Positions 4,594-18,380 of a stretch of 64,000 nucleotides of DNA are shown here, piece after piece. Numbering within the stretch: the first letter of the stretch is position 1; the number at the start of each line of letters is the position of its first letter. The stretch comes from Candidatus Omnitrophota bacterium (GTDB taxonomy: Bacteria; Omnitrophota; Gorgyraeia; Zapsychrales; Zapsychraceae). The position numbers and the translations under genes were made by a program. The notes beneath the pieces are model-generated. The model made no database searches. It saw only the letters and a list, made by a program, of their open reading frames with translations, and was not told the DNA's origin. The stretch covers positions 48,196 to 112,195 of the forward strand of contig JAJDCB010000030.1 in assembly GCA_029261065.1 (NCBI GenBank). The letters run 5' to 3'.

Positions 4594-4671
4594 GGTGGGT
4601 GTAGCTCAGTCCGGTAGAGCTCCTGGTTGTGGTCCAGGCGGTCGCGGGTTCAAGTCCCGTCACTCACCCCA
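4594..4671 (+). tRNA. tRNA-His (anticodon GTG) with extra 5' G(-1) and encoded CCA
   Basis: Cloverleaf is readable. Acceptor gGTGGGTG pairs with CACTCACC. D-arm is GCTC...GAGC. Anticodon stem CCTGG/CCAGG with loop TTGTGGT gives U33 and anticodon GTG. T-arm is GCGGG-TTCAAGT-CCCGT. The G-1:C73 eighth acceptor pair is the hallmark of tRNA-His. It resembles E. coli tRNA-His. Confidence 0.85.
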
Positions 4672-6231
4672 TTTTTCATTTTTTGCGTAGGATTTTTCGT
4701 AAACCTCAGTGTTTTCAACAGGATGATGAGGTTCTAACCGTTTATGAAGGGCCTGAACTCCTGGGGCTACTTCTCCAACTAGTTCAAGTGGTTTGTCGAG
4801 GGGAATAGATAGCTTTCTATCTAAAAGAAAGAGGTTCGAACCTAAAGCAGCTAGAATATCTCGTTTGTCATCTATCGTACCGAGTTCAAACCTATCTTTA
4901 GCGGTCTCAGCAAAATTCAGCATTGTTTCAGCGCGATCCAGCCACGTTTCTGCACGATTATTGGAATCATTTATTAATTCTTCGTATTTGTGCTTTTCTT
5001 GAATTAGCTTTTCTTTATGTTTTGAGAATTCTTCCGAACTGACCTCCCCGCTTAATCGGAGATCGAGTAATGCATCTAGTTTTCGTTTGCAAGTATCCCA
5101 CGCTTTACGGTGTGCGGTGACAATTTCCTTTTGATCTTCGGTTTCGTTAGCCTGTTCGGCTTTGAGTTGTTTGATTGCCCATTGATGAAATGAGGGAGGG
5201 ATGTTAATCTTGATTAAGGTATCTGTGATCTGTGTTTCAAGATCTTCCATTCGAACAGGTTTTTGAGAACATTTTTTAATTCGTTTAGTACAACGATAGT
5301 AAGTATAGTGATGAGTATTTCCATTTTTTTGATGTTTGGTTTTTTCTTCGGCTGTAATAGCCGCGCCACATTCACCGCAACGGATTAATCCTGTATAAGC
5401 GAAGCTGTGTGTTTTAGAGCAGGTAAAGGATCGTCTATCTAGAATTGTCTGAATCTCATTAAATTGGGATTTACTGATCATGGGTTTATGGTTACCAGGA
5501 TAAAGATTACTTTTCCATTTAAAATGACCATAATAAAATGGGTTACGAAACAACTCATGCATCTTACTTAGACTAAGAGGTTTATTGTTTGACGATGTTA
5601 ACCCAATTTTCTTAGAAAAAGTGTGGATAGATTTAATCGAACATTTTTTCTGGATTAATGTATCCCACAATTTTCTAACGAGTGCAAATTTGTCAGGATC
5701 TTTGTGTATAGGGGGAAGGTCGGGAAGTTTGTGTTTGTTATTCAAATATCCAATAGGTGGTTTATGTGGATACCAGCCATCTTCAACTTTTTTCCGCATA
5801 CCTCGTTTTGTATTTACGCTTAAATCAATTACAAATTGATTCGCCATACCAAATTCCAAGTTCATCATTAAAACGTTGTCAGAGGGCAAATAACCACGTT
5901 GGAAGGTCTGTATGTGTTGGATGATGCCTTGTTGGAGCATCCAGTTAATTTTGCCTCCGTCAATGGGATTTCGAGCTAGGCGGTCAAGTTTCCAGCAAAT
6001 AATACCATTCGCCTGTCCGTTTTGAATAGCATCAAGCATTTCATTGATTATTGGACGACCAGGTGCTTTAGCTGATTTTTCTTCGGTATAAATATCAGTA
6101 ATTTTCAGATTTTTATCTTTAGCAAGGTTTTTAAGTTCACTAATTTGGGAGGGAATGGAGGCTACTTGTTTGTCTTCACTCTCAGAAGATTTTCGTGCAT
6201 AAAGAAAATATTTAATTGGTGTCGAAATCAT
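4660..6231 (-). CDS. large serine recombinase (integrase) of an integrated element
   Basis: N-terminal resolvase catalytic domain YARKSSESEDKQ with the serine nucleophile and LDRLARN, then a recombinase domain. Zinc-ribbon CGECG...CTKRIKKC and a C-terminal coiled-coil are present. The stop overlaps the tRNA-His 3' end by about 12 bp. Confidence 0.85.
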   Translation of the reverse strand: MISTPIKYFLYARKSSESEDKQVASIPSQISELKNLAKDKNLKITDIYTEEKSAKAPGRPIINEMLDAIQNGQANGIICWKLDRLARNPIDGGKINWMLQQGIIQHIQTFQRGYLPSDNVLMMNLEFGMANQFVIDLSVNTKRGMRKKVEDGWYPHKPPIGYLNNKHKLPDLPPIHKDPDKFALVRKLWDTLIQKKCSIKSIHTFSKKIGLTSSNNKPLSLSKMHELFRNPFYYGHFKWKSNLYPGNHKPMISKSQFNEIQTILDRRSFTCSKTHSFAYTGLIRCGECGAAITAEEKTKHQKNGNTHHYTYYRCTKRIKKCSQKPVRMEDLETQITDTLIKINIPPSFHQWAIKQLKAEQANETEDQKEIVTAHRKAWDTCKRKLDALLDLRLSGEVSSEEFSKHKEKLIQEKHKYEELINDSNNRAETWLDRAETMLNFAETAKDRFELGTIDDKRDILAALGSNLFLLDRKLSIPLDKPLELVGEVAPGVQALHKRLEPHHPVENTEVYEKSYAKNEKWGE

Positions 6232-6431
6232 TGCTCAATTTTTTGTAACAGCTTTTTTAAGTCGGATTCTTTATAAAGACGATAGTTATTTATTGGATGT
6301 CTGTGTGGTTTTAGCTTGTCCGCTTTATCCCAATTTCGTAAAGTCTGTCCGGTTACTTTTAAAAGTTTTGCGGCTTCTTTAATTGTTATGTAATTGCTCA
6401 TAATGCCCCTCTCCTTAACCTTATAAAACAT
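6228..6431 (-). CDS. AlpA/excisionase-type helix-turn-helix DNA-binding protein
   Basis: ITIKEAAKLLKVTGQTLRNW is an HTH_17/MerR-like excisionase motif. It overlaps the integrase start by 4 bp. An internal Met at MSNYITIKEAA may be the real start, near 6401. Confidence 0.5.
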   Translation of the reverse strand: MFYKVKERGIMSNYITIKEAAKLLKVTGQTLRNWDKADKLKPHRHPINNYRLYKESDLKKLLQKIEQ

Positions 6432-6631
6432 TATAAATTAGTAAGATAGTAAATCAAAGCATATTCTTTTCTTTTAAAATTTGGTAAATATGATTTAAAA
6501 TTTGTGTTTTATTTAGTCGAACAATTATTTTTTTCATTGTTTATAATTTGAATGACAAGAATGACAAGTTTTTCTTATTTAAACCATTAATCGTGAATAA
6601 TAATTAAAGTATAGTGTTATTGTCATTCTTG

Positions 6632-8833
6632 TCATTGATTTTTTTTGAAAAAGTAAGAGCTTTTAATTCCTACCCAATAATGTGACTGCGCGTCTTTGTC
6701 TTCGCCAATAGAAAAATGTTTTATGAGCTGTTTGCCAAATTTAATCTTAGACAGTGGTCTGAAACAATTATCTTTGCACCAATTTTGATAGGTTTGGTGG
6801 AGATCACCTTTTTTGCTTGTTAATCCCTTCCCCAATCTACACGCCTCATCGACAAAAAGAAGAACATTGTTATTTTCTTTTTGATAATCAATCAGTTCTT
6901 CGCGGATAGATTTGTCTACTTCAAAATAATTTCGTTTTCGAAGTCGATTGAGTCCTAGTAAACACCAATTAAAAATTCCATTTAATTCGGTTTCCAGCTC
7001 ATATTTTAGGTTTTTGTTTTGTTCGCATTCGGGAAATTCCCGATTAAACCTTAATATAAGTAGTCTTCGAAAAAATGCGGGAGTCTTATCATCAACACGA
7101 GGCATATTGTTTAACGAAAAAACTAATTTGGAAAATGGGTTAAATTTAAAGGGTTGTTTAAATTTGTGGTCTGCCTGTATTTCATCGCCACTTATTACAG
7201 CTTTAAACATACTGTCGTATACTTCTGATTTGACGTTTGTTTCGGTACTGATATTAGCTAATTTTCCAAAAAGATTGGCTAAATAATGCGAATCATTAAA
7301 TTTTTCTAAAGAAATAGCTGAATAATTATCTTTACCTAGAATTAAGCCAAGGATGTAAAGAATAACACTTTTGCCATTAGCGCCATCACCAATAAGAAAA
7401 AGGGCTTTTTCATATTTTGTTTCTTTTGTAAGACACAATCCCATAAATTCTTGAAGTGCCTGAATTTTCTCAATGTTCTGCTCAAATATTTCGTTAATAG
7501 TCTGTTCCCATAAGGGGCAATGGGTATGTTTATTGAACTCAATATTTAGTTGAATCGTTGAGTAATTGTCTTGGTTGTGTTCTGTTAAAGCAAAGTTATC
7601 AAGATTAAATAGTCCATTCTTTAAATTGAGATATGGAGAACAATTAAGAATATTAGGGACAATAAAAGATTTTATTTTTAAAAAATGTATTATTTCATGG
7701 CTTTTGCGTTGGCTCGTTTTTGTTTTAAGGATTTCTAAGGTTAATTGATGTATTTGTTCTTCATGTGTTTTTGTGTAAACTCCCTCTGAATATTGATAAA
7801 AATTTTCTGCAGAGAATATGATTTTATTTTGCCCGAGTATTAAGTCAGCAATTTTTACGGAATTTATGCTTCCTCCGTCAATAAACTCTATGTTAGATGC
7901 GCTTTCTTTAGATTTGATAAAATCTTTAAGAAGGGAATCTTTTGCTTTTTGGAGTGAGTGCTTAAGATATGGATTTCCTTGTAACCTATATTTTTCTCCA
8001 ATAGGGTAATGTGTAAAAATTTTATATATTTCGTTATCAGTTGCTCCTGATTTGAGTAGGTTGATGATAACTTTAAAGTCAGCTTCGCTTCTCGACTCAA
8101 AACTATCTTGTGGTTTTTTGCCTTTTTCAATAAGTTGTCTGGTTTCATTAGAGAGATTAAGGGTATTTAGATTAATATTGTCTTGGATTGAGAGTTCTTT
8201 ATTAATTTTTAGGTTTTTTTGAAAGTCGCTAATTTTATAACGTAATGAATCGTCAAAATAGATGATTTTTACTTCTTTATGGTCATGTAGTACTTTACAG
8301 TTAGTTGTTGATGGTATTCGTAGTATTCGGTCAATATTATGAGTTCCATTATCTCCATGAAGGTCGGTGACTAATAGTTTCAGTATGTTTTCTATATTTT
8401 CAAAATTGTCTACAGGGAATAAGCCCGTTAATAACCAATAACAATGCAAACCATACCCGGAATCAACGATAATGGAAGGGGGTAGTTTGTAGCTTTTGAT
8501 AAATGTTATAGCCTCGCTTTGGGTTTTAAAGAAACAGTATTTTTTGTGTCCAATTTTTCCATAGTCAACATCTGTCCAGAGGCTTGTAATAAATTCTATT
8601 GATTCTTTTTTTCCTGATTGTTTTGATCGTGGAGCTACACCAAAATAGATGTCACCTGTTAATGTTGGCGTTAATTCAATAGCTTCAGTAATAGACTTTG
8701 CGAAATGTTGTTCTGCCTTACTATTTTTGATTGTTCGAATTTCTAAATAGCCTGACTGGTAGTCGAAAAAAGGAAGGAATAATGCATTAAAGAATTTTTG
8801 AGTTTCAAGTATTTTCATGAGTTGGGTGGTCAC
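6632..8833 (-). CDS. bifunctional primase-polymerase (PrimPol) fused to D5_N/P4-family SF3 helicase, replication protein of the mobile element
   Basis: N-terminal motifs WTDVDYGK, SGYGLHCYW (sGxGxH) and HNIDRILRIPST. C-terminal Walker A FLIGDGANGKSV with P4/D5-type helicase architecture. Confidence 0.75.
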   Translation of the reverse strand: MTTQLMKILETQKFFNALFLPFFDYQSGYLEIRTIKNSKAEQHFAKSITEAIELTPTLTGDIYFGVAPRSKQSGKKESIEFITSLWTDVDYGKIGHKKYCFFKTQSEAITFIKSYKLPPSIIVDSGYGLHCYWLLTGLFPVDNFENIENILKLLVTDLHGDNGTHNIDRILRIPSTTNCKVLHDHKEVKIIYFDDSLRYKISDFQKNLKINKELSIQDNINLNTLNLSNETRQLIEKGKKPQDSFESRSEADFKVIINLLKSGATDNEIYKIFTHYPIGEKYRLQGNPYLKHSLQKAKDSLLKDFIKSKESASNIEFIDGGSINSVKIADLILGQNKIIFSAENFYQYSEGVYTKTHEEQIHQLTLEILKTKTSQRKSHEIIHFLKIKSFIVPNILNCSPYLNLKNGLFNLDNFALTEHNQDNYSTIQLNIEFNKHTHCPLWEQTINEIFEQNIEKIQALQEFMGLCLTKETKYEKALFLIGDGANGKSVILYILGLILGKDNYSAISLEKFNDSHYLANLFGKLANISTETNVKSEVYDSMFKAVISGDEIQADHKFKQPFKFNPFSKLVFSLNNMPRVDDKTPAFFRRLLILRFNREFPECEQNKNLKYELETELNGIFNWCLLGLNRLRKRNYFEVDKSIREELIDYQKENNNVLLFVDEACRLGKGLTSKKGDLHQTYQNWCKDNCFRPLSKIKFGKQLIKHFSIGEDKDAQSHYWVGIKSSYFFKKNQ

Positions 8834-9101
8834 TTCCCGAGGTAATTGATCTATAAAGATTTAGTAGTTGGATTCCATTTTTTTCAGCTTCATCTTGAGT
8901 AAGATGAATTTTGTATTCATTGAAGTAAATTTCTTGAAATTTTTTAATGGCCTTTTGAGATAGCATAGGTTATCCATGAGTGATTAAACCTTTATAATGT
9001 CTAATATACTATGTTCTCATTTTTATATAAGGGACAGGAAGGGGGGTGAGTTTTTAGGAACAAATGTCCCCTTGTGTAGGGGGTGAGGATTGTAACTTTA
9101 T

Positions 9102-10001
9102 TTATTTCATAGATTTAGGAATTGCAAAAGCTCTTAAAAAATCACTATCATCGATAAGTTCTTTAAAGATTGTAGAATGATTTTTTATTTTGAGAAATTT
9201 AAGAATAGCATGCAATTCATTAAAATATAAGCCGTCAGAAAATTTTTCATTTTGTTGAATTGATTTTTTTATAAGCCCTGAAAGATATAGGTTACGAATG
9301 TGTCTTTTTAATCCTGATTTTGTTTTAAAGAGAGATTTTGTTTTTGACCCAATCTTTAGATTGTTTTTTAATGAACTTTTATAAGATATAATGCGATTTC
9401 TTTCATATCGTTTAAATTTTTTGCTTTGAAGTTCTGATTTAAAATAATATGGTAACCTTTGTAATCTTTTTTTTATATTATCAACAGTTTTTAGATAGTA
9501 GTTTGGATGTCGTTTTTTCCAATCTTTCATACATGTTTTATCTGGAGTATTTTTGATAAGCAGGAAGAGGTCCGCCATAATTTCGCAGCGTTTTTTATCC
9601 CCTAATCTCATTAATAGGGTTTTCATGCTCATTAAGAATAAGGCTATATTAAATTCTTTTTTTTCTTTAGACCGGAAACGCTTGCGATACTCTTTGCCAA
9701 CTTTTAACTCAATTCTGAGAAATCTGTGCATAGGTTCAAATATATTCTTGTGAGTTTTAATTTTGGCTAACAGGTTACAATCTTGCTCAAGCTTTGATAG
9801 ATAAGCACGTGCTGGATCGGGCAATTCATTCTTCTTGTTAATATAATTCATGCTTTCAGCTATCCTTTTGGAATAGTCATTTCTCAAGAAAATCCAATTT
9901 TCTCTCTTTGAATTTTTTTTAATATCCTGAAAAAATTCATCTAAAACCCCAGTGGAGATTAATTGTTTTCCTGTGATTTTATTATAATTATTATCTTTCA
10001 T
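9102..10001 (-). CDS. hypothetical basic (Lys/Arg-rich) protein, co-oriented upstream of the replication gene
   Basis: 299-aa ORF with no recognisable motif and very high K/R content. It is the first gene of the leftward int/rep module. Confidence 0.3.
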   Translation of the reverse strand: MKDNNYNKITGKQLISTGVLDEFFQDIKKNSKRENWIFLRNDYSKRIAESMNYINKKNELPDPARAYLSKLEQDCNLLAKIKTHKNIFEPMHRFLRIELKVGKEYRKRFRSKEKKEFNIALFLMSMKTLLMRLGDKKRCEIMADLFLLIKNTPDKTCMKDWKKRHPNYYLKTVDNIKKRLQRLPYYFKSELQSKKFKRYERNRIISYKSSLKNNLKIGSKTKSLFKTKSGLKRHIRNLYLSGLIKKSIQQNEKFSDGLYFNELHAILKFLKIKNHSTIFKELIDDSDFLRAFAIPKSMK

Positions 10002-10162
10002 GATTATTTTTGTAAGTTCTTATAATTTTATATTTGGAAAATGCTCTTCATTCGATTATAATGTTTTATAAGGTTTTTGTAAAATTAAATTACAAAGTAA
10101 GAAAATATTATTAAAATGATGTAGAGTATTGTGTTAGTGAAACTGGAGATTAAATTTCTAAA

Positions 10163-10381
10163 ATGAAAATAGGTTTTGATAAATTTAACTTGAACCAGAA
10201 ATTATATTCAGTAATTGGTGCTGTTATAGCTATTTTGACTTATATGGTCGACGCTGATAATTTAAATGTTGCGATAGGAATAGCTTTGCTAACTATTATT
10301 TTAGTGTTGATGCTGAAAAATCAATATATTTCTTATTGTCCTAGACACCCCTACCCTTACCTACCCAGATCCATTGACTAA
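10163..10381 (+). CDS. small hypothetical membrane protein
   Basis: 72 aa with two hydrophobic helices. First gene of the rightward cargo cluster. Confidence 0.25.
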   Translation: MKIGFDKFNLNQKLYSVIGAVIAILTYMVDADNLNVAIGIALLTIILVLMLKNQYISYCPRHPYPYLPRSID

Positions 10382-10429
10382 TTATTAATCATAGAGCATA
10401 CTTGTACTTTAATATTAAAGGGGAGAAGT

Positions 10430-11128
10430 ATGAAGAAAATAGGATTAATGGTCATAGGAATGTTGCTTTTTATAGTTAGCAATGCATGTGCTGTAATATT
10501 TGTGCATACAAGCGATTTTATTGTAAATTCTGATAGAACTAATTTTAATGGTTTTGAAGGCTTATCAACCCCGGGAACTGGTCAAATTTTAGCAAATGGT
10601 GTGTTTATATTAAATGATCCTTCTGAAGCAACTTACGAAGAAGATGGAATTGTAGTGACCCAGATTTTTGATCAATTTGTAGCGGGAAATGAAAGTTTTG
10701 GAATCTGGACTACACATTTTCCATCAGAAGGAACAAGAGATTGGTATCCTAATGGAGGAGATGATGGATATACGCGAATTACTAGATTGGGAGATTTAGA
10801 TTTTTTCAATGTTGGTTTTGATGTATCAAGTGGGACTGGAGGAAATAAATATCTTTTCATCCTATTGAATGATGGATCTATTGTTAGTCAAGGAAATGTC
10901 AATCGTCCAAATGGTCATAGTTATCTGGGCTTTTCTCATGGAGGTTTTGATGAAATATTGGTTAGATCAATAGATTCACCTTTAAGTAATCCAGAATTCT
11001 ATGATATGAGTTTGAACGGATTAAGCATTGATGAAATTGAACTTTCAGGTGTAATACCAGAGCCTACATCAATTATACTATTGGGAATTGGTTTAAGTGG
11101 AGCAGGTTTCTTTAGAAGAAAAAGATGA
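10430..11128 (+). CDS. PEP-CTERM sorting-domain protein (exosortase substrate)
   Basis: N-terminal signal peptide. C-terminal IPEPTSIILLGIGLSGAGFFRRKR is a canonical PEP motif + TM helix + Arg-rich tail. Confidence 0.7.
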   Translation: MKKIGLMVIGMLLFIVSNACAVIFVHTSDFIVNSDRTNFNGFEGLSTPGTGQILANGVFILNDPSEATYEEDGIVVTQIFDQFVAGNESFGIWTTHFPSEGTRDWYPNGGDDGYTRITRLGDLDFFNVGFDVSSGTGGNKYLFILLNDGSIVSQGNVNRPNGHSYLGFSHGGFDEILVRSIDSPLSNPEFYDMSLNGLSIDEIELSGVIPEPTSIILLGIGLSGAGFFRRKR

Positions 11129-11240
11129 AGAGATTGTTACTAATATGTATAACAGAAAAAAGCAGTATCAGAAATCTCTAATTATCGCTATCTTTACTTT
11201 GAAAACGGCATCCTAACCTCTTGGCAAGACTAGGTTAATC

Positions 11241-12080: not shown

Positions 12081-12509
12081 ATGAAAAACCTAATACTCGT
12101 ATTCACGTGCCTATTAATCATCGGATGCGCGACAACTAGCATTGGGAAAAAGTCTGCAATGCTTAGGATTGGAATGACAAAAGATGAAGTAATTGAGATT
12201 TTAGGAACTCCAAAGACAACTTCAGTTAAGGAAAAAAGCGATGGTGTTGTTGAAAAATGGTCATATTGGTCAAAAATGTTTTACGGCACTATTATTCTTG
12301 ATGATCCTAACATGGCAGGAGCAGGAAACCGCATAACTGTAACTTTCAAAAACGAACTTGTTTCATCTTGGGGGGATCAGCTAGATTATTCAGACATCAT
12401 GGAAAATTCTACTCAATTAATGGGTGAATATATGAAAAATATGCCTACTATTCAGGTTGAGCAAAAAGTTTATGACGGCGATAGGCAAGATGCTAAAGAG
12501 CAAGAATGA
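12081..12509 (+). CDS. hypothetical lipoprotein
   Basis: Signal peptide with lipobox LIIGC-ATT. 142 aa. Confidence 0.4.
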   Translation: MKNLILVFTCLLIIGCATTSIGKKSAMLRIGMTKDEVIEILGTPKTTSVKEKSDGVVEKWSYWSKMFYGTIILDDPNMAGAGNRITVTFKNELVSSWGDQLDYSDIMENSTQLMGEYMKNMPTIQVEQKVYDGDRQDAKEQE

Positions 12510-12575
12510 ACGTAAAAGGGAGTAAGAGTAAGGGTGGAGTTCCCCCGATAAAATGGACACAAACATGGGTGAATA

Positions 12576-13253
12576 ATGGATGAAAAAACTCCTTGGGGAA
12601 AATTACATGAGGAATGCATAATCCACGATTTTGATAATTTTGTAAAATATTTTGATGATGAGTTAGCTTCAGTTGTATTGTCGTTGGTTATTTGTGCTAA
12701 TGATTTAAAAATTTGTTTAGATTTGATTTTTACTGAAAAAAATGAATTCCCACATAAGGCGAACTATTTTTTTAAATTAGCAATATCACATCTTAGAGAG
12801 CTGGCTACAGTAGTTGGGAAAAAAGGAGAATTGGTTCAAAATTTTCTTCAAAGACATAATGATAAAACACTTTTAGAAAGTTGGAAAATTCTAGAAGATA
12901 ATTTGGCTAATTATGAAGGGCTTGTCAAAGATGTGTTAAAGGAAGTTAGAGATGATGCTTTTCATTATGAGTATTCGAAGGAAACTGTGAGTGCTTTAAA
13001 AAATTTTGATAAATTACAGGTTGCCTATCAAAAAAAGGGGGTTTTCAAAGAAAATCCAATAGGTCAGGTTTATTTGTTTGGGCATAAGGTGTCAGGGACG
13101 ATAATGAATGTTCATTTAGATAAAAAAAGTGTCCAGAAAATGAGTGAGGCTTCAAGTAATCTTTTTACATTTGTGGATAGTCTATTACATATTGCACAAC
13201 AAGAAGATGTATATTTGAGGAGTCTTGTAAAGAAACTAACAAAGAATAATTAA
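12576..13253 (+). CDS. hypothetical cytoplasmic protein
   Basis: 225 aa with no signal peptide and no recognisable domain. Confidence 0.3.
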   Translation: MDEKTPWGKLHEECIIHDFDNFVKYFDDELASVVLSLVICANDLKICLDLIFTEKNEFPHKANYFFKLAISHLRELATVVGKKGELVQNFLQRHNDKTLLESWKILEDNLANYEGLVKDVLKEVRDDAFHYEYSKETVSALKNFDKLQVAYQKKGVFKENPIGQVYLFGHKVSGTIMNVHLDKKSVQKMSEASSNLFTFVDSLLHIAQQEDVYLRSLVKKLTKNN

Positions 13254-13324
13254 TTTATTTGGAAAAGCCTATTTTCAACTATTTAACAAAATCATAACAC
13301 AACTATTTATTAAGAGGGGTATTT

Positions 13325-13834
13325 ATGAGAATAAAGGAAATACACAAGATTGTTTATTTGTTAATTACGGTTGTGATAGTAAGTGGTTGTTCTGCTATTA
13401 GAAATCATAGGAATTTTCAGCAACCATTAGAACAAAGCCTTACAGCATCTGTAGGTTCTGCTCTTGTGAGAATGAATCGGATTGGAGATTTACCAAACGC
13501 CTATGGTGGTAGAGATATTTATGGTGGAAAGGTTGATAAAGGTTATGTAGAGGTGAAATTAGTAGAAATCACCGATACTAAGGGATTAACCTTAAGTGTT
13601 AGTGATGTTGCTGTCCAATCGACTGAATCAACAATGACTAGATATGTAAATCCGAAATTAGTTGATGTAACTCAAAATGTTAACATTAGTTCTTCTGATA
13701 ATAGTAGTACAATTGTTGAAATTGATGGGAATGCTGAAAACGAATATGTTATTGGTGGTGTAAAAATAACATTTTTAGAAATAAGGAAATCATCAATAGT
13801 TTATACCATTGAAGATCTAATGGCGGTTAAATAA
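13325..13834 (+). CDS. hypothetical lipoprotein
   Basis: Signal peptide + lipobox IVSGC-SA. 169 aa. Confidence 0.4.
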   Translation: MRIKEIHKIVYLLITVVIVSGCSAIRNHRNFQQPLEQSLTASVGSALVRMNRIGDLPNAYGGRDIYGGKVDKGYVEVKLVEITDTKGLTLSVSDVAVQSTESTMTRYVNPKLVDVTQNVNISSSDNSSTIVEIDGNAENEYVIGGVKITFLEIRKSSIVYTIEDLMAVK

Positions 13835-14122
13835 AAATATGTTAATATTAACCTATGCAATGGGCGAGGGAAGAAGTTCTAACTTGGCTTAACCACCGAC
13901 CACATTTGTTATAACCCGTTGCAGTGTAATAAATTGCAGCGTGTTATTTTTATAATATAAATCCGACCAAACTAAGATGTCATGTAAGTTTGGTCTTGAC
14001 AAGGTGATTTCTTTAAAATAAACAGTGACAGGCACGGATTAAGGCAAGGCTGCGAGGCGGATCGGAAAAGAATGCCTGGCACTCATTATTTTTAAACGAA
14101 ATTATCTTCTATTTCTGATTTC

Positions 14123-14485
14123 ATGAAATTTAAAAATATTATTACATCTTTCCTTCAATATGGACTTGCTATATATGTTTTTATTATTATGGCATTTATA
14201 ATTTCCTTTAAATTAACAGAAGCGGTTTTGGAACCTTTTTATTGTCAACGATTGTTAGTATATGTTACAGGTATATGGATTGTAATGATGTTTCTTTTGA
14301 TAATCATTCATTATAAAATTATTTACCCTTATTCTCGTAGTAGTCCTATTAAAGGTCTTGTAATCCTTGCTTTGATTTTAAATTTTGTCACTTATATAAT
14401 TTCTTCAGGAGACTTTGGGAGTGAGTGTGGGAAGGCTTGGCTTGAATGCAACCAGGGAAATTGCAAAAAATCGAGTGAATTTTAA
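14123..14485 (+). CDS. hypothetical integral membrane protein
   Basis: 120 aa with 3 predicted TM helices and a Cys-rich C-terminus (CGKAWLECNQGNCKK). Confidence 0.3.
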   Translation: MKFKNIITSFLQYGLAIYVFIIMAFIISFKLTEAVLEPFYCQRLLVYVTGIWIVMMFLLIIIHYKIIYPYSRSSPIKGLVILALILNFVTYIISSGDFGSECGKAWLECNQGNCKKSSEF

Positions 14486-14510
14486 TAAGTTTGTTTAGTG
14501 TTCATTAATG

Positions 14511-14547
14511 AAGCAAACAGGTTCTAACCTGTTTCAGCCAGCCACCC
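14511..14547. repeat. 36-bp direct repeat copy 1 (aagcaaacaggttctaacctgtttcagccagccaccc) containing a 7-bp-stem hairpin
   Basis: Identical except for 1 nt to the copy at 16823-16860. Both lie about 25 bp after a + strand stop codon. Hairpin is aaacagg-ttctaa-cctgttt. Confidence 0.6.
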
Positions 14548-14634
14548 TTATTTTGTCTAACATGTTGGTATGCATGAGGTTAACTATATGCTCCTGACGA
14601 GATAGGTGGAAAGATTTTAAGAAGGAATGCCGAG

Positions 14635-15000
14635 ATGAAAAAGCCTCTAGTATGGATTGTTCTTATTGTTGTGATTGGTGTTTGTGTTTACAAAGCAAAT
14701 GAATTCAATGAAAATTATAAGAAGGGAATGAGTCGAGTAAAGTATGTCCCTCCTCATGAAAATGCGACGATTGATGAAGTGGAAAAGAAAATTGGAGACA
14801 AATTAACTATTACTAAGAAAGAGAATATCATTTTTGGAGTTGCTGAAGAACCAATGGGAATTTATATGGGTTCAGGTCCTCCTGTGTATATATTTGATGA
14901 GAACAATACACTAATTGATTACACATTAGATAGAGGGGATGATTTAAAATTTAGAAGAAGATGGTACATAGATAAAAAAGGTAATTCAACTGAAAATTAA
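14635..15000 (+). CDS. hypothetical secreted protein
   Basis: 121 aa with an N-terminal signal/anchor helix. Confidence 0.35.
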   Translation: MKKPLVWIVLIVVIGVCVYKANEFNENYKKGMSRVKYVPPHENATIDEVEKKIGDKLTITKKENIIFGVAEEPMGIYMGSGPPVYIFDENNTLIDYTLDRGDDLKFRRRWYIDKKGNSTEN

Positions 15001-15082
15001 TTTTGGATTAAAGTATTCAACAAGTTTTCTGACATTAAGCTCGTCAACGAAGCGACCTTTATTCCTAACTAAAGGAAATACA

Positions 15083-15769
15083 ATGAATAAATTATTATTC
15101 CTCTTTGTGTTATTATCCCTTTCTTCAAATGTTTTTGCAGAATCAATAAATTCTTCACCTAAAGAAGTTTCCAGATCTGAAATAATTGAAAAACTATCAG
15201 CAATTAACTCTTTATATTACGAGATGACATCAAGAACTTCATCGGACACGCCGTTACCGGGTGGCGATGCAATTTCTGATGAAAAAGTGTGGTTTAAGGA
15301 AGGCTACTGGCGTACAGATATTCATTCAGAATCCGCTAATGCAAAGAAAAGAATAAATATTTCAACACCGGAAGCAAGTTATTTCTATAATTCATTTTCA
15401 GATGAAACAAAAAAAAGAGACGGGGGAGCAGGACAGGATTTAAAGAATTTCTTATTTCGATTCTTCTTTGCAACGCTAAAAAGAGAGGAGTCTTTTAAAA
15501 TATTAGGAACAGAGGAGATAGATGGTAAGATTACTACGATACTAGAAATTATTCAAAGTCCTAAGAAGATGAATGTGGAAGGTCAAGATATCAGTATAAA
15601 GGAGAAAAGAATTAAAGTTTGGATTTGGAATGAGAAAGGTGTACCACTCAAACAAGAAGAAAAGTGGCAGGATAATGATTTTCCAATAGAGTATACAACA
15701 ATGATTACATATAAAAATTATAGTTTTGATGAAATACCAAGTGAAATATTTGATATATTAAAAGAATAA
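15083..15769 (+). CDS. hypothetical secreted protein (possibly LolA-like fold)
   Basis: 228 aa. Signal peptide MNKLLFLFVLLSLSSNVFA. The domain assignment is speculative. Confidence 0.35.
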   Translation: MNKLLFLFVLLSLSSNVFAESINSSPKEVSRSEIIEKLSAINSLYYEMTSRTSSDTPLPGGDAISDEKVWFKEGYWRTDIHSESANAKKRINISTPEASYFYNSFSDETKKRDGGAGQDLKNFLFRFFFATLKREESFKILGTEEIDGKITTILEIIQSPKKMNVEGQDISIKEKRIKVWIWNEKGVPLKQEEKWQDNDFPIEYTTMITYKNYSFDEIPSEIFDILKE

Positions 15770-15850
15770 TTTAGCGTTCAAATTAATTTTTTATTGCGTC
15801 AATTTCGTGTATTATTTGGATGTTATGAAACTTTTTTGTTTGGAGGCCAG

Positions 15851-16798
15851 ATGACGAATAAATCTAATAATCTAAAAAGCATTCAGACAGTTTTTATTCC
15901 CCTAACTACAAAAATTATTTTAATTTTAATTTTAATTTTTTGTTTTTACTCTTCTTCATTTGGGCAGGATATTTCAAATATGGAGGAGCGAATAAAGAAT
16001 GCTCAGATATTTTATGTTAATGAGCAAGTCAATAAGAAGCCTGAAATATATGAAGGGGATAGGTTGGTTTGTAAACTAAAATCGGCAGAAATATATTACG
16101 CTGGTCAAAAAAGCATTAATTATTTGAGCAATGAGACCAGTCAAAAATCTACTGAAGAGTTGCGCTTTAAGTTAGAAATTTTTGGTCCAGAAAAATATAA
16201 TCTTATCCCCAGAGAACGATTATCAAGCAGTGTTATAAAAGGTGGGAAAATAACAATCGCAGAAGATGAAATAGGTAAGAATCTTGTGAGCAATAAATCT
16301 TCAATATCACATGATTCAAATTATTATACTTTTACTCAACATCCTATAACAATGCATGGAGAAGCAACCATTACTGGGCTTCAATTGCCTTCTAAGGATG
16401 CGAAAATATTAAAATTGTTAGAAGGTTATTTAACTGTCCACAATGCAGAACAGACAAGTGAGAAAGAATTGAATCCTTTAATAGGTAATGTAGGAAAAGG
16501 CATTGCGATTAATGAAGAAGCAGAAATTACATTTAAAGTTTATGATGATAATGTTGAATACATTTTAGAGTGGGAGGAGGGTCAAGATAAGCCGTATCTT
16601 GATATAGAGTATTATTCGAAAGACGGCACAAAATTAAAGCGTAAAGGTGGGGGGAGTTCAGGAGTTAATAGGAAAATTGAATATCAGCAGAAGTTTGTTG
16701 AGGCATTTCCTCCTGATGCTTACGTTATAATAAAATATCCAAAAAAAGTAAATGAAATTCAAATTTCTTTTTCTTTTAAGGATATTCCTTTACCATAG
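15851..16798 (+). CDS. hypothetical secreted/membrane-anchored protein
   Basis: A ggagg RBS precedes the ATG at 15851. Long hydrophobic signal-anchor. Track ORF begins at 15794. Confidence 0.4.
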   Translation: MTNKSNNLKSIQTVFIPLTTKIILILILIFCFYSSSFGQDISNMEERIKNAQIFYVNEQVNKKPEIYEGDRLVCKLKSAEIYYAGQKSINYLSNETSQKSTEELRFKLEIFGPEKYNLIPRERLSSSVIKGGKITIAEDEIGKNLVSNKSSISHDSNYYTFTQHPITMHGEATITGLQLPSKDAKILKLLEGYLTVHNAEQTSEKELNPLIGNVGKGIAINEEAEITFKVYDDNVEYILEWEEGQDKPYLDIEYYSKDGTKLKRKGGGSSGVNRKIEYQQKFVEAFPPDAYVIIKYPKKVNEIQISFSFKDIPLP

Positions 16799-16822: not shown

Positions 16823-16860
16823 CAAGCAAACAGGTTCTAACCTGCTTCAGCCAGCCACCC
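16823..16860. repeat. 36-bp direct repeat copy 2 (caagcaaacaggttctaacctgcttcagccagccaccc)
   Basis: Matches 14511-14547. Lies about 30 bp outside the left IR of the IS481 element. Confidence 0.6.
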
Positions 16861-16891
16861 CATTCTGTTTCAGGTCCATACCGGACACATG

Positions 16892-18159
16892 GGTAACAGT
16901 TTGTACCGGAGACATAGGTTACACTATCTCCGGTGCAAACGGGTACTCTAACGGTTCGACTTTTTTGGTTTCTAAATCAAAAAATCCTAAGTCATAATTC
17001 ATAAAAGTAACAAGCCACACATCATCGTTGATTTCTTTAACACCAACGACCTGTCCAGCAAGAGCACGGCTTAAATTAATTTTGTTTCTTCTAATACAAA
17101 TTCTACCGCAATTTGTTACCGTAACAGTTCTATCATGAAAAGGGTAGTTAAGTTCTTCAATTCCTTTGTAAATGCGAGTTGAAGTCTTATATAATTCGCT
17201 AGGGTATTTCATATCAATGGCTTGATGAGGTCTATCTGTATTAAACTCTTGAATAAAGTTATCGAATTTTTCTTGTTGTTGCAATAAGTTTATTCCTGGA
17301 GGTTTTGTTGCCTCTTGTTTGAGTGTTAAATGCATACGTTCATGTCTTCCATTTTGCTGCGGATTACCTGGCTTAATTCTTTCAATAGCAATACCAAGAC
17401 GTAGCCACCAAACAGAAAGTTTGCTTAATCCAAACAGTGCATTGGCAGAAGAGAATGGGAGGCCATTATCTGTACGAATAGTTTTTGGTAAGCCATATTT
17501 CTGAAAAGTTTGTTTTAAGGTGCTGAAGGCATGGATTTCTTTGGTGCTTTCCTGTCCTTCACAAGCGAGTAAATAGCGACTACAGAAGTCTGTAATCGTT
17601 AAGGGATAACAATAAGTTTTATTGCCAAGCATAAATTCACCTTTGTAATCAGCGCACCATAAGTCATTAGGATTTTGATGTTTTGAAAAAGGAGTCCCCT
17701 GAGGTTTAAATCGTCTTCTTTTTCTTCGTTTGACTAAACCATTTCGATCAAGAACACAATGAATAGTGTTTTTAGCAGGAGTCTTTACTTCTGGATACTT
17801 TCGTTTTAATTGTTCTTGTATTTTAGGAGCACCCCAGGAAGGTTTGTCTTGTTTTATTCTTAAGATTTCATTTTCGATTTGAATTGGTAATTTATTTGCG
17901 TAACGATGCGGCTTCCTGGCTCGATTTGTAAGGCCGTGAAGACCGATATCCTTGTAGCGATTCCAAAATTTATAACCTGTCTTTCGTGAGATATCAAATT
18001 CACGGCAAAGTTCAGACATTTTGTCACCTTGTATTAATCTTCCTATAAATTTCATTTTTTCATCCATAATAACACTCTCTTTCCATGGCATATGTAGTAC
18101 CTCCTTATATGCCATTATTGTATAAAGTGTTACCTATGTCTCCGGTATATTGTGTTACC
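16892..18159 (-). mobile_element. IS481-family insertion sequence (about 1.27 kb) with imperfect terminal inverted repeats
   Basis: Left end ggtaacagtttgtaccggagacataggttacact matches the reverse complement of the right end aagtgttacctatgtctccggtatattgtgttacc, about 28/34 identical. It encloses a single DDE transposase gene. No clear target-site duplication was identified. Confidence 0.7.
16919..18115 (-). CDS. IS481-family DDE transposase (integrase core, rve)
   Basis: N-terminal HTH then a DDE/rve core (...TDNGLPF...). The transposase sits within the IRs. The likely true start is MDEKMKFIGRL, near 18067. Confidence 0.8.
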   Translation of the reverse strand: MAYKEVLHMPWKESVIMDEKMKFIGRLIQGDKMSELCREFDISRKTGYKFWNRYKDIGLHGLTNRARKPHRYANKLPIQIENEILRIKQDKPSWGAPKIQEQLKRKYPEVKTPAKNTIHCVLDRNGLVKRRKRRRFKPQGTPFSKHQNPNDLWCADYKGEFMLGNKTYCYPLTITDFCSRYLLACEGQESTKEIHAFSTLKQTFQKYGLPKTIRTDNGLPFSSANALFGLSKLSVWWLRLGIAIERIKPGNPQQNGRHERMHLTLKQEATKPPGINLLQQQEKFDNFIQEFNTDRPHQAIDMKYPSELYKTSTRIYKGIEELNYPFHDRTVTVTNCGRICIRRNKINLSRALAGQVVGVKEINDDVWLVTFMNYDLGFFDLETKKVEPLEYPFAPEIV

Positions 18160-18193
18160 TATCTCTCAGGAAGCACACCGAAGGAAAAAACAA

Positions 18194-18272
18194 GGAATTG
18201 TCTCGATGTTTTTGCGAGACAATTCCCAATCTGTTTTAAAGACAGAACTTCTCTTGTTGAGGTTCTGTCTTT
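18194..18272. repeat. two adjacent perfect hairpins outside the right IS481 IR (ggaattgtctcg-N8-cgagacaattcc, then aaagacagaac-N13-gttctgtcttt)
   Basis: A 12-bp and an 11-bp perfect inverted repeat read directly. The second is followed by a T-rich run. They may be terminator or att remnants. Confidence 0.5.
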
Positions 18273-18380
18273 TCCTTTTGTTGACAAAAAAAAGTAGAAA
18301 AAAATGAAATTTTACATATTTCATAGTAAAATATTAGGAAAAGCTGACTTTTTTATCAAATTTAATATTATTATTCCACT

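What the first reader, a model, noticed from the sequence alone, without database searches (positions are those of the whole stretch)
4594..18300. tRNA-His-associated integrative element with serine integrase, AlpA/Xis, PrimPol-helicase and about 7 kb of unknown secreted cargo
The stop codon of a 523-aa large serine recombinase overlaps the last about 12 nt of an intact tRNA-His, which suggests the recombination site lies in the tRNA 3' end and the element restores it. The leftward module (basic 299-aa protein, PrimPol::P4/D5 helicase, HTH excisionase-like gene, integrase) resembles satellite/PICI-like or small integrative replicons. Rightward transcription diverges at 10002-10162 into a cargo of secreted, lipoprotein or membrane proteins with no recognisable function, then an IS481 element. 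Serine (not tyrosine) integrases at tRNA genes are uncommon.
Basis: partly seen in the sequence, partly recalled or inferred. Interest (0 to 1): 0.6.

Follow-up and report, generated by a model that had tools for sequence, protein, structure and literature searches.

The report
Serine-integrase element targeting tRNA-His 3' end
A 12-kb self-replicating mobile element sits at the 3' end of a tRNA-His gene, and its serine integrase belongs to a large, apparently undescribed clade that targets tRNA and tmRNA gene ends using a site on the element that copies the tRNA end with 5 extra bases.

Summary
An intact tRNA-His (4595-4671) overlaps by 12 nt the last four codons of a 523-aa large serine recombinase (4660-6231, minus strand).

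The right end is a 30-nt imitation of the tRNA 3' half at 16833-16862 (GGTTC...CCACCCCA). An IS481-like element starts about 18 nt further on. The element is therefore about 12.2 kb (about 4669-16862).

The overlap holds across the family. In 48 of 80 related loci from many phyla the integrase gene ends in or beside the 3' end of a convergent tRNA or tmRNA. His is commonest; Asn, Gln, Lys, Asp, Trp, Ile, Met, Gly, Leu and tmRNA also occur.

Where the far end or an unintegrated form is visible, the imitation places GGTTC exactly 5 nt further from the end than the real tRNA does. This matches the published 5-bp attP/attB offset of the zinc-ribbon-domain motif in serine integrases. Crossover maps to tRNA positions about 70-73, so integration swaps the integrase's C-terminal tail.

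There are no phage structural genes, so it looks like an integrative plasmid-like replicon. No excision evidence or empty site exists for this host. A related host shows an empty tRNA-His site. I found no description of such a clade in the literature searched, only a 2020 hint.

The parts
4595..4671 (+). tRNA-His(GTG), intact, CCA encoded. Its last few nucleotides (from about position 70-73 onward) are inferred to be supplied by the element.
   Evidence: ARAGORN; Rfam tRNA 62.2 bits; sequence
4647..4700 (+). attL. The B arm is the tRNA T-arm plus the acceptor 3' strand; GGTTC is at 4647-4651, 25 nt from the CCA end. The inferred crossover zone is 4665-4668 (tRNA positions 70-73). The P' arm is 4669 to about 4700, inside the integrase's last codons.
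   Evidence: Blocks of identity between tRNA ends and P arms intersect at positions 70-73. The outer limit of P' is estimated.
4660..6231 (-). Large serine recombinase, 523 aa. Its stop codon and last three codons lie inside the tRNA gene.
   Evidence: Pfam Resolvase/Recombinase/Zn_ribbon_recom. 6959 homologues at E<=1e-20. Catalytic-domain residues R13, S15, D83, R84, R87 and zinc-ribbon cysteines are invariant in alignment A1.
6228..6431 (-). MerR/HTH_17 excisionase-like gene, overlapping the integrase start by 4 nt. The real start is probably M11 at 6401, after an AAGGAG ribosome-binding site. Putative directionality factor or regulator (inferred).
   Evidence: Pfam MerR, HTH_17; PHROG excisionase families; TIGR01764 24.8 bits, below the 28.8 cut-off; the same gene precedes the integrase in L086, L089, L090, L092
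6417..6436 (-). Conserved 20-nt promoter/operator motif TTATAATGTTTTATAAGGTT, copy 1, just upstream of the MerR-integrase operon.
   Evidence: 100% inverted repeat with 10056-10075. The same motif is upstream of the MerR gene in L086, L090, L003, L092, L006, L014, L024, L039, L089. Promoter-like match.
6632..8833 (-). PrimPol-like primase fused to a P4/D5-type helicase (replication module).
   Evidence: Pfam D5_N, DUF5906, Pox_D5; TIGR01613 224 bits; PHROG DNA primase 1.7e-93; orthologues in L086/L090 carry Pfam Prim-Pol
8805..8966 (-). Small ORF (53 aa) at a conserved position just upstream of the primase.
   Evidence: ORFs of 53-64 aa sit at the same position in L086, L090, L092.
9102..10001 (-). 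299-aa lysine-rich protein, function unknown. It is the first gene of the leftward module.
   Evidence: No Pfam, PHROG or NCBIfam match. Not detectably similar to the proteins at the same position in L086/L090.
10056..10075 (+). Promoter/operator motif, copy 2, inside the divergent promoter region 10002-10162. On the minus strand, TTTACA-17-TATAAT matches the consensus at 11 of 12 positions.
   Evidence: A second inverted copy followed by TTTGTAAA is conserved in L086, L090, L092, L006, L014.
10163..13834 (+). Cargo block 1: 72-aa membrane ORF, PEP-CTERM protein (10430-11128), 62-aa ORF, DUF5681 protein (11553-11933), BamE-like lipoprotein (12081-12509), 225-aa protein, lipoprotein (13325-13834).
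   Evidence: low G+C
13866..13902 (+). Degenerate sequence resembling a tRNA 3' half or P arm (GAAGTTCTAACTTGGCTTAACCACCGACCA).
   Evidence: Repeat family D1; sequence. Weak.
14515..14547 (+). Internal second copy of the P arm (32 of 33 nt identical to 16828-16860). It ends CCACCC|TTATTTTG and lacks the final CA.
   Evidence: No integrase remnant follows it.
14123..16798 (+). Cargo block 2: membrane protein (14123-14485) and three secreted or membrane proteins (14635-15000, 15083-15769, 15794-16798), no family matches.
16833..16880 (+). attR. The P arm is 16833-16862 (GGTTCTAACCTGCTTCAGCCAGCCACCCCA), a tRNA 3'-half imitation with GGTTC 30 nt from the end. The host B' arm follows (TTCTGTTTCAGGTCCATA).
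   Evidence: The same 30-mer with 1 mismatch marks the far end of the related element in L086/L088. Unintegrated forms carry 30-nt arms. Offset test.
16881..18170 (-). IS481-like insertion sequence just outside attR. Not part of the element.
   Evidence: Inverted repeats of 45 nt, 80%; Pfam rve, LZ_Tnp_IS481; NCBIfam IS481 211 bits, just under the 224 cut-off

Best explanation
The region from about 4669 to 16862 is a roughly 12.2-kb plasmid-like integrative replicon inserted at the 3' end of tRNA-His by its own large serine recombinase.

Mechanism:
- Host site (attB). It consists of the tRNA's T-arm and acceptor 3' strand as the B arm, plus about 20 nt downstream as the B' arm.
- Element site (attP). 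It consists of a P arm that imitates the tRNA 3' half, with the T-loop motif GGTTC placed 5 bp further from the crossover, and a P' arm that lies in the last codons of the integrase gene.
- Recognition. I infer that the zinc-ribbon domain reads the near-universal GGTTC(R)A T-loop motif. I infer that the recombinase domain reads the acceptor-strand bases next to the crossover. This would explain how relatives have moved between different tRNAs and tmRNA.
- Strand exchange. It occurs within about tRNA positions 70-73. Only the last few nucleotides of the tRNA are replaced by identical element sequence, and the gene stays functional.
- Products. attL is a normal tRNA joined to the integrase 3' end. 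attR is the whole 30-nt imitation joined to host DNA.
- Consequence for the integrase. Its C-terminus depends on state. In the chromosome it ends ...KWGE, with the stop codon supplied by the tRNA. In the free form it is predicted to end ...KWGGWLKQVRTCLLATH.

The free element replicates with its primase-helicase. The MerR/HTH_17 protein is the likely directionality factor or regulator.

Shown: anatomy, boundaries by comparison, the family-wide tRNA association, the +5 offset, and the existence of attP-state relatives.
Inferred: which protein domain reads which bases, the exact crossover dinucleotide, the role of the MerR protein, and present-day mobility.
For: 1. Anatomy of the window.

2. Family-wide association. 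In 48 of 80 loci found with conserved internal peptides of the integrase, ARAGORN places a convergent tRNA or tmRNA 3' end overlapping or within about 60 nt of the integrase stop. About nine more show a tRNA 3' half that ARAGORN missed because of a contig end or an intron.

3. Conserved C-terminus. W521 is invariant and G522 is at least 90% conserved in A1. These codons are the complement of CCA and of tRNA positions 71-73.

4. Far end. The 30-mer at 16833-16862 recurs with 1 mismatch 8.3 kb from tRNA-His in L086/L088, whose integrase is 73% identical (A1).

5. The +5 rule. The distance from GGTTC to the end is 25 nt in the tRNA and 30 nt in the P arm for His (window, L086). It is 23 against 28 for Lys (L048; L049, two copies) and Gln (L051), and 25 against 30 for Leu (L074). 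A scan of 305 kb over 22 offsets gave all true hits at +5 and none on the opposite strand, against about 0.07 expected per offset.

6. Unintegrated forms. L098 is a head-to-tail repeat of a 9.27-kb unit at 99.6-100% identity, and L092-L097 and L089 also lack a tRNA. All carry a 30-nt P arm directly after the integrase.

7. Protein-level read-out. About 12 of the 120 closest integrase clusters have tails of the form WG.WL..VRTCL, which is antisense to a P arm with R-T at codons 9-10. About 14 read through antisense tRNA with D-S-N at codons 6-8. That is the same 5-nt difference.

8. Published rule. The zinc-ribbon-domain motif lies at positions 16-24 in attP and is shifted 5 bp to positions 11-19 in attB (Rutherford et al. 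2013, PMC3783163). With GGTTC at the outer end of an attB half-site, the centre falls at tRNA positions about 71-72. The identity-block mapping gives the same place.

9. Insertion shown in a relative. L099, L100, L101 and L103 share synteny with L086, and the L099 tRNA-His, which was read, matches L086's except at its first base. They have DUF748-tRNA-His-224aa-SpoU with no element. L086 has 8.3 kb between tRNA-His and SpoU.

10. Tandem arrangement in a relative. L049 shows a P arm abutting a 23-aa integrase C-terminal remnant, as expected for a junction between tandem elements.
Against: - No empty site or excision junction is available for this host. Its flanking protein has no relatives in the database, and a metagenome DNA scan for a related tRNA found nothing.
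- The P' and B' arms show no obvious symmetry with P and B, and B' is not conserved between loci. The classical quasi-palindromic site is only half demonstrated.
- The crossover dinucleotide is not pinned down. No single position in 70-73 gives a non-palindromic dinucleotide in all tRNA types examined.
- Many 10-kb flanks showed no recognisable P arm. Those elements may be longer than the flank, or their arms may be more diverged.
- The internal second P-arm copy at 14515-14547 is unexplained.
- The IS481-like insertion begins at the outer edge of the predicted B' arm and might impair excision.
- All of the evidence is comparative. Nothing has been tested biochemically.
Confidence: 0.8

Rival explanations
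1. The insert is composite. The active element would end at the internal P-arm copy (about 4669-14547, 9.9 kb). The stretch 14548-16862 would then be the relic of an older element of the same kind that integrated first and later lost its integrase and replication module (tandem accretion at one tRNA).
For: There are two nearly identical P arms in direct orientation (32 of 33 nt identical) and a third degenerate one at 13866-13902. L049 shows exactly such a tandem, with an attP-like junction and an integrase remnant. Accretion at one site is well known for other integrative elements (PMC5357655).
Against: No integrase remnant follows 14547. The sequence after it resembles a P' arm only loosely. 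The copy lacks the terminal CA. L086 has a single P arm.
Confidence: 0.35
2. The element is a fixed, no longer mobile relic. The integrase and sites are preserved only by recency, and the IS481-like insertion beside attR has disabled excision.
For: The IS starts about 18 nt after the P arm, at the edge of the predicted B' half-site. There is no evidence of a free form for this particular element. The only other assembly of the locus (Logan SRR15505515, 12.1 kb) matches the window's integrase and flanking protein exactly and has the same gene order.
Against: The integrase is full length with all conserved residues. The tRNA, P arm and both promoter motifs are intact.
Confidence: 0.2
3. Only the integrase-to-299-aa module (about 4669-10100) is the mobile element. 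The 10.2-16.8 kb genes would be host genes, and the 30-mer at 16833 would be an unrelated intergenic repeat or terminator.
For: The conserved core of relatives is just this module. Nucleotide similarity to L086 on the cargo side stops right after the promoter motif near 10080. The cargo encodes envelope proteins such as a host might carry.
Against: The 30-mer is the same sequence that bounds the L086 element 8.3 kb from its tRNA, beyond a different cargo gene. It obeys the +5 rule and ends in the tRNA-His 3' sequence. It occurs only twice in 64 kb. Low G+C continues to about 16.5 kb. The empty site of the L086 relative shows that the cargo belongs to the insertion. No tRNA-like or att-like sequence lies near 10100.
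Confidence: 0.05
4. Integration follows the usual tyrosine-integrase logic of tRNA islands, with a long identical core and crossover deeper in the tRNA (T-loop or anticodon loop). The serine recombinase would be a passenger.
For: The position at a tRNA 3' end, the neighbouring primase and the excisionase-like gene resemble P4-type islands.
Against: No tyrosine recombinase gene is in the element. There is no second copy of the tRNA 3' 14-26 nt. A crossover 5' of the length difference would leave a tRNA 5 nt too long at attL, yet attL tRNAs are normal. The association follows the serine recombinase across phyla.
Confidence: 0.01

Closest known systems
Characterised large serine integrases (Listeria A118/LI, SPbeta SprA/YokA, phiC31, Bxb1)
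   Same: Same three-domain architecture. They are the best solved-structure matches: SPbeta YokA 3.9e-10 and A118 8.7e-10. The two kinds of site differ by a 5-bp shift of an outer motif, as described for the zinc-ribbon domain (PMC3783163).
   Different: Under 30% identity to any integrase in the phage or plasmid collections. The target is the 3' end of a tRNA or tmRNA gene, which is restored, not a protein-coding gene. The P arm imitates the target gene. The site overlaps the integrase's own last codons. The carrier is a small primase-helicase replicon, not a phage.
tRNA-inserted islands with tyrosine integrases (P4-type satellites and similar genomic islands)
   Same: Insertion at a tRNA 3' end with restoration of the gene. 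The integrase gene lies next to the tRNA. They also carry a P4-family primase-helicase and a small HTH excisionase-like gene.
   Different: The recombinase family is unrelated. The identity between the two ends is only 7-10 nt, not a long direct repeat. No helper-exploitation or packaging genes were found.
Serine-integrase islands at t(m)RNA genes noted by TIGER (Mageeney et al. 2020, PMC7192596)
   Same: That study counted 14 of 297 serine-integrase islands at t(m)RNA genes. It said such use had not been reported before and needed proof. These may be the same phenomenon.
   Different: No clade, site anatomy or mechanism was described there. I could not check whether those 14 integrases belong to this clade.
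XisF, the fdxN-element excision recombinase of Anabaena (NCBIfam NF041201)
   Same: Best named NCBIfam match over nearly the full length (2e-32).
   Different: The score of 112.8 bits is far below the 375-bit cut-off, so this is not an equivalog. XisF excises a developmental element from a protein-coding gene (from memory).
Fusellovirus SSV1-type integrases, whose attP lies inside the integrase gene (from memory, not tested here)
   Same: The recombination site overlaps the integrase ORF, so integration changes the gene.
   Different: SSV1 uses a tyrosine recombinase, and integration splits the gene in two. Here only the residues after W521 are exchanged and the enzyme core stays intact.

Membership tests
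Large serine recombinase (serine integrase) | N-terminal resolvase-type catalytic domain with the catalytic serine and conserved arginines | tested here: met
   Pfam Resolvase 67.5 bits against a cut-off of 23.3. R13, S15, D83, R84, R87 are invariant in 30 relatives.
Large serine recombinase (serine integrase) | Recombinase domain followed by a zinc-ribbon domain with four cysteines | tested here: met
   PF07508 44 bits and PF13408 44.8 bits, both above cut-off. C285, C288, C314, C321 are invariant.
Large serine recombinase (serine integrase) | Short attP and attB sites in which the outer (zinc-ribbon-domain) motif lies 5 bp closer to the centre in attB than in attP | tested here: met
   GGTTC lies 25 (or 23) nt from the end in the tRNA and 30 (or 28) nt in P arms. 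This holds in the window, L086, L048, L049, L051, L074, L089, L092, L098. The rule is from PMC3783163. It is shown for one half-site only.
Large serine recombinase (serine integrase) | Quasi-palindromic sites with a 2-bp non-palindromic crossover | tested here: inconclusive
   The crossover is confined to tRNA positions about 70-73 by identity blocks. The dinucleotide is not identified. The P' and B' arms show no clear symmetry with P and B.
Large serine recombinase (serine integrase) | Excision requires a separate directionality factor | not testable with these tools
   A conserved MerR/HTH_17 gene is coupled to the integrase gene, but its role is only inferred.
tRNA island with tyrosine integrase (P4-like) | Tyrosine recombinase (Phage_integrase domain) encoded next to the tRNA | tested here: not met
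   No such domain was found in any ORF of 4600-18300 that was scanned.
tRNA island with tyrosine integrase (P4-like) | Direct repeat of the tRNA 3' segment (usually more than 15 nt) at the far end | tested here: not met
   No second copy was found: 26 nt with up to 3 mismatches, or 14 nt with up to 2 mismatches. Only 7-10 nt are shared with the P arm.
Phage satellite (PICI / P4-like) | Genes for exploiting a helper phage (packaging, capsid remodelling, helper-responsive regulation) | tested here: not met
   PHROGs gave only primase and excisionase-type matches, plus unknown-function families for two cargo proteins. Only 3 weak relatives were found in 2.9 million viral contigs.
Self-replicating integrative plasmid-like element | Own replication initiator or primase-helicase, and existence of a free form | tested here: met
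   A P4-family primase-helicase is present. The free-form evidence comes from relatives only: the L098 9.27-kb head-to-tail units, and L092-L097 and L089 with attP junctions. It was not shown for the window's own element.
IS481 family insertion sequence (neighbour at 16881-18170) | DDE transposase of IS481 type with terminal inverted repeats | tested here: inconclusive
   Pfam rve, rve_3 and LZ_Tnp_IS481 are above cut-off. NCBIfam IS481 scores 211.4, just under the 224 cut-off. Inverted repeats are 45 nt at 80%. The target duplication is unclear (possibly TCAGG).

The most novel reading that the evidence does not exclude
This clade of serine integrases recognises a structural constant of all tRNA genes, the T-loop GGTTCRA box, through its zinc-ribbon domain. 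Specificity for a given tRNA would be set only by a few acceptor-stem bases that the element copies into its own P arm. Retargeting to another tRNA would then need little more than editing the P arm. That would explain the spread over at least ten tRNA identities plus tmRNA, and over bacteria, candidate-phyla-radiation lineages and possibly DPANN archaea.

In addition, the state-dependent C-terminal tail might take part in controlling directionality or expression. The tail is present only on the free form and is conserved as G-R-W-L-x-x-V-R-T-C-L.
Probability: 0.3. Interest if true: 0.85.

Novelty: new variant of a known kind. Interest (0 to 1): 0.72.

Why it matters
The standard view is that tyrosine integrases use tRNA genes and serine integrases disrupt protein-coding genes. 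The largest surveys either found only 14 doubtful serine cases at t(m)RNA genes (PMC7192596) or did not consider tRNA targets at all (PMC10083194 has no mention of tRNA).

This clade has thousands of members. It supplies a concrete site anatomy that can be tested directly with short synthetic sites. It also gives natural, independent support to the 5-bp attP/attB offset model.

Serine integrases need no host factors and are favoured genome-engineering tools. A family whose target is the conserved end of tRNA genes could give ready-made landing sites in uncultivated or genetically intractable lineages such as Omnitrophota and Patescibacteria. It could also give a system in which target choice is readable from the element's own sequence.

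These elements also appear to be a major, unrecognised class of small mobile replicons in ultra-small bacteria.

Tried and rejected
- A second copy of the tRNA 3' end in the window: none found. Long direct repeats of the tRNA on the element side of 40 related loci: none beyond 8-18 nt spanning the junction. This ruled out a deep crossover.
- A crossover in the T-loop, where the T-arm palindrome would form both half-sites. Rejected, because attL would then carry a tRNA 5 nt too long, and attL tRNAs are normal.
- An element ending near 10100, where similarity to L086 stops. Rejected after the shared P arm was found beyond different cargo in both elements.
- An empty site for this host. The flanking DUF748 protein has no relatives.
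- An exact-DNA scan of metagenome contigs for the L086 tRNA-His: zero matches, not even its own contig.
- The viral-contig scan gave only 3 weak relatives.
- The 299-aa protein shows no similarity to the proteins at the same position in relatives.
- No integrase remnant lies next to the internal P-arm copy.
- A regex tally of C-terminal tails anchored on the wrong tryptophan in many sequences. I relied on the listing instead.
- Literature searches found no description of a tRNA-targeting serine integrase clade. The library lacks most subscription journals, so prior description cannot be excluded.

Full report
**1. What is in the window**

ARAGORN finds a single tRNA in the 64 kb. It is tRNA-His(GTG) at 4595-4671 on the + strand, with CCA encoded. 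Rfam confirms it at 62.2 bits.

On the opposite strand a 523-aa ORF (4660-6231) carries the three domains of a large serine recombinase, all above the Pfam cut-offs. Its last codons TGG-GGT-GAG-TGA are the reverse complement of tRNA positions 65-76. The tryptophan codon is the complement of the CCA end, and the stop codon lies in the acceptor stem.

To the right, on the minus strand, lie:
- a MerR/HTH_17 excisionase-like gene whose end overlaps the integrase start by 4 nt;
- a 733-aa primase-helicase (P4-family primase C-terminal region, TIGR01613, 224 bits against 108.7; D5_N/DUF5906/Pox_D5; AEP motifs DVD and SGYGLH near the N-terminus);
- a 53-aa ORF;
- a 299-aa lysine-rich protein with no family match.

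From 10163 the genes run rightward. They encode small proteins with signal-peptide, lipobox or membrane N-termini, among them a PEP-CTERM protein, a DUF5681 protein and a BamE-like lipoprotein.

An IS481-like element with 45-nt inverted repeats occupies 16881-18170. A CheX gene follows. G+C is 29-35% from about 6 to 16.5 kb and 36-41% outside.

**2. The overlap with the tRNA is a property of a whole integrase clade**

The integrase has 6959 homologues at E<=1e-20 among the 8000 candidates scored. The top 120 clusters are 54-81% identical. Those that carry names are from Omnitrophota, Elusimicrobia, Scalindua, Nitrospirae and Margulisiibacteria. In an alignment of 30 of them, W521 is invariant and G522 nearly so.

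A scan of one genome per species used two internal conserved peptides, so it was blind to the C-terminus. It returned 584 relatives, of which 80 were kept. These come from Omnitrophota, Planctomycetes, Elusimicrobia, Margulisiibacteria, Rickettsiales, many Patescibacteria and two bins labelled as DPANN archaea.

In 48 of these 80, ARAGORN places a convergent tRNA or tmRNA whose 3' end overlaps or lies within about 60 nt of the integrase stop. The counts are His 25, Asn 8, Gln 7 and Lys 3, with one each of Asp, Trp, Ile, Met, Gly, Leu and tmRNA.

About nine further loci show a tRNA 3' half that ARAGORN missed. The cause is either a contig end or, in Patescibacteria, what look like intron-containing tRNA-Asn genes (compare PMC13011429).

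Closest relatives looked up individually (L086-L091) show the same arrangement at tRNA-His and the same core genes.

**3. Where the other end is**

There is no second copy of the tRNA 3' end in the window. No long tRNA repeat exists on the element side of 40 related loci either. Only short matches of 8-18 nt straddle the tRNA terminus.

The informative sequence is at 16833-16862: GGTTCTAACCTGCTTCAGCCAGCCACCCCA. It is followed by TTCTGTTTCAGGTCCATA and then the IS. It looks like a tRNA-His T-arm plus acceptor strand, and it ends in the same CACCCCA as the tRNA.

The same 30-mer, with one mismatch, lies 8.3 kb from tRNA-His in L086 and L088. The L086 integrase is 73% identical to the window's in alignment A1, and its host has the same DUF748-tRNA-His neighbourhood. 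There it sits beyond a different cargo gene (a MORN/Sel1/trypsin protein) and 13 nt before the host SpoU methylase gene.

Related genomes with a 77-80% identical DUF748 protein carry DUF748-tRNA-His-224aa-SpoU-...-cyclophilin with nothing inserted. In L099, the one I read, the tRNA-His matches L086's except at its first base. The 8.3 kb in L086 is therefore an insertion.

For the window's own host no relative exists in the database, so its empty site could not be seen.

**4. The +5 rule**

In the real tRNA, GGTTC (positions 52-56) starts 25 nt from the CCA end. In the imitation it starts 30 nt from the end. The same difference holds in other tRNA types:

| Locus | tRNA | tRNA distance (nt) | Far-end arm (nt) |
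|---|---|---|---|
| window, L086 | His | 25 | 30 |
| L048, L049 (two copies) | Lys | 23 | 28 |
| L051 | Gln | 23 | 28 |
| L074 | Leu | 25 | 30 |

I scanned 305 kb of element-side sequence from 38 loci. The pattern was GGTTC, a spacer, and the last 6 nt of the cognate tRNA, at 22 different offsets.
- All genuine hits fell at +5.
- The two apparent exceptions were an internal GGTTC inside the L086 arm and a mis-anchored T-loop in L048.
- No hits fell on the opposite strand.
- About 0.07 hits per offset are expected by chance.

**5. Unintegrated forms**

Three relatives have no tRNA after the integrase. Instead a 30-nt arm ending in CCCCA lies directly after it:
- L089: GGTTCGCAGGGGACAACAGGAAGGACCCCA
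- L092: GGTTCGAAACTCGCTCAGCCAGCGACCCCA
- L098: GGTTCTAACCTCGTCCAAGAAGGGACCCCA

L098 is a head-to-tail repeat of a 9272-9276-bp unit at 99.6-100% identity. That is what a circular or concatemeric free form would give. L092-L097 are six contigs shown, of ten carrying this protein, all with the same arrangement. L089 lies among conjugation genes.

The same information is visible at protein level, from the sequence after the CCA-encoded tryptophan in the 120 closest clusters:
- About 80 stop after two residues (GG or GE), inside the tRNA-His acceptor complement.
- About 14 read on through antisense tRNA, with D-S/L-N at codons 6-8. This is GAACC at nt 21-25.
- About 12 have G-R-W-L-x-x-V-R-T-C-L, with R-T at codons 9-10. 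This is GAACC at nt 26-30.

The window's element, if circularised, would encode ...KWGGWLKQVRTCLLATH from 16812-16862. That matches the third class.

**6. Mechanism**

Rutherford et al. (PMC3783163) showed for the Listeria integrase that the zinc-ribbon domain reads a motif at positions 16-24 of an attP half-site. The same motif is shifted 5 bp to positions 11-19 in attB. This difference underlies site discrimination.

Here, if GGTTC(R)A is that motif, the centre of attB falls at tRNA positions about 71-72.

I obtained the same place independently. I intersected the blocks of identity between each tRNA end and its P arm: window 70-76, L086 67-76, Lys 67-73, Gln 70-74, Leu 69-76. The intersection is 70-73.

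A crossover further 5' is excluded. attL would then inherit the 5 extra nucleotides, yet attL tRNAs are normal.

The integration reaction therefore joins the tRNA body to the element a few nucleotides before the CCA end. The whole imitation is left at attR.

Assigning GGTTC to the zinc-ribbon domain, and the acceptor bases to the recombinase domain, is inference. The P' arm (inside the integrase's conserved YA-N-KW codons) and the B' arm (non-conserved host DNA) show no clear symmetry with P and B. The exact dinucleotide is not fixed.

**7. The rest of the element**

A 20-nt motif, TTATAATGTTTTATAAGGTT, occurs twice in inverted orientation. One copy is at 6417-6436, just before the ribosome-binding site of the MerR-integrase operon. 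The other is at 10056-10075 in the divergent promoter region.

Both copies are conserved in L086, L090, L092, L006 and L014, and one copy in five more relatives. They coincide with good promoter matches. This looks like a shared promoter/operator pair.

The motif also shows that the MerR-like protein probably starts at M11 (6401).

No phage structural or packaging genes were found. Only three weak relatives exist in 2.9 million viral contigs. With its own primase-helicase, and with free forms seen in relatives, the element is best called an integrative plasmid-like replicon, not a satellite or prophage.

**8. Open points**

A second, nearly identical P arm lies at 14515-14547, and a degenerate one at 13866-13902. 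In L049 such an internal arm abuts a 23-aa remnant of an integrase C-terminus, which is the signature of tandem insertion. In the window no such remnant is detectable. Accretion of an older element is therefore plausible but unproven.

The IS481-like element begins at the outer edge of the predicted B' arm and may or may not affect excision.

**9. Comparison with what is known**

The closest annotated integrases in phage and plasmid collections are under 30% identical. The best named NCBIfam model, XisF, scores far below its cut-off. The best solved structures are SPbeta and A118 integrases, at about 1e-10 to 1e-9.

On target choice, the literature I could search says:
[quoted passage not shown] 14 of 297 serine-integrase islands were found at t(m)RNA genes, with the comment that this 'has not been reported previously' and needs proof (PMC7192596).
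- Serine integrases of streptococcal elements insert within genes and disrupt them (PMC5357655).
- The large survey of serine recombinase sites does not mention tRNA (PMC10083194).

I found no description of this clade or of a tRNA-imitating attP arm. The library omits most subscription journals, so this is not proof of absence.

**10. Verdict**

The boundaries are refined to about 4669-16862.

The element is a new variant of a known kind: a serine-integrase integrative element. The variant features are:
- systematic targeting of tRNA and tmRNA 3' ends;
- a target-imitating P arm that obeys the 5-bp offset;
- a recombination site that overlaps the integrase's own stop codon;
- a carrier that is a small primase-helicase replicon, widespread in uncultivated small-celled lineages.

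Noticed in passing
window 16881-18170: An IS481-like insertion sequence sits about 18 nt beyond attR. TCAGG occurs at 16871-16875 and again at 18166-18170. It could be a 5-bp target duplication if the IS ends are 16876 and 18165. Just downstream (18195-18230) is a perfect hairpin, GGAATTGTCTCG...CGAGACAATTCC, which may be the original terminator after tRNA-His.
   Followed up: partly
window 6417-6436 and 10056-10075; also L086, L090, L092, L006, L014: A 20-nt motif, TTATAATGTTTTATAAGGTT, is conserved in two inverted copies per element. It brackets the replication module and overlaps -10 boxes. It is probably a common operator for a repressor carried by the element.
   Followed up: partly
L034, L050, L081 (downstream of the integrase): In several Patescibacteria loci the sequence after the integrase is a tRNA-Asn-like 3' half preceded by about 60-100 nt of non-tRNA sequence (...GATATAGTCCACCC...). 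ARAGORN calls no tRNA there. This fits the group I introns reported in Patescibacteria tRNA-Asn genes (PMC13011429).
   Followed up: no
L030 (Pacearchaeota bin), L043 (Woesearchaeota bin): Integrases of the same clade, about 50% identical, occur on contigs binned as DPANN archaea. L030's lies beside tRNA-Asn. This is either cross-domain spread or mis-binning of Patescibacteria contigs.
   Followed up: no
L089 1512-4927: An attP-state integrase of this clade (72% identical) converges on, and overlaps by 70 nt, a second and unrelated 623-aa serine recombinase. The contig also carries a relaxase, a coupling protein and a tyrosine integrase. The P arm lies inside the 3' end of the other recombinase gene.
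   Followed up: no
window 4834-4845 (inside the integrase gene): The invariant protein motif G464-S-N466-L is encoded by GGTTCGAACC, which is a perfect T-loop-like palindrome, about 165 nt from the tRNA end. It may be coincidence, or a potential internal binding site for the enzyme.
   Followed up: no
window 22901-22986: A strong inverted repeat (29-nt arms, 90% complementary, 28 nt apart) has a GC-rich core: GTCGTCCCCGCGAAAGCGGGGA / TCCCCGCTTTCGCGGGGATGAC. It lies after the 733-aa ORF at 20736-22937. It could be a terminator or a repeat element.
   Followed up: no
L098 (whole locus): The free-form relative uses a different replication module (Phage_rep_O plus an IstB/DnaC-like ATPase) in place of a primase-helicase. 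It carries MORN and pentapeptide-repeat cargo. The integrase/att module therefore moves between replicon backbones.
   Followed up: no
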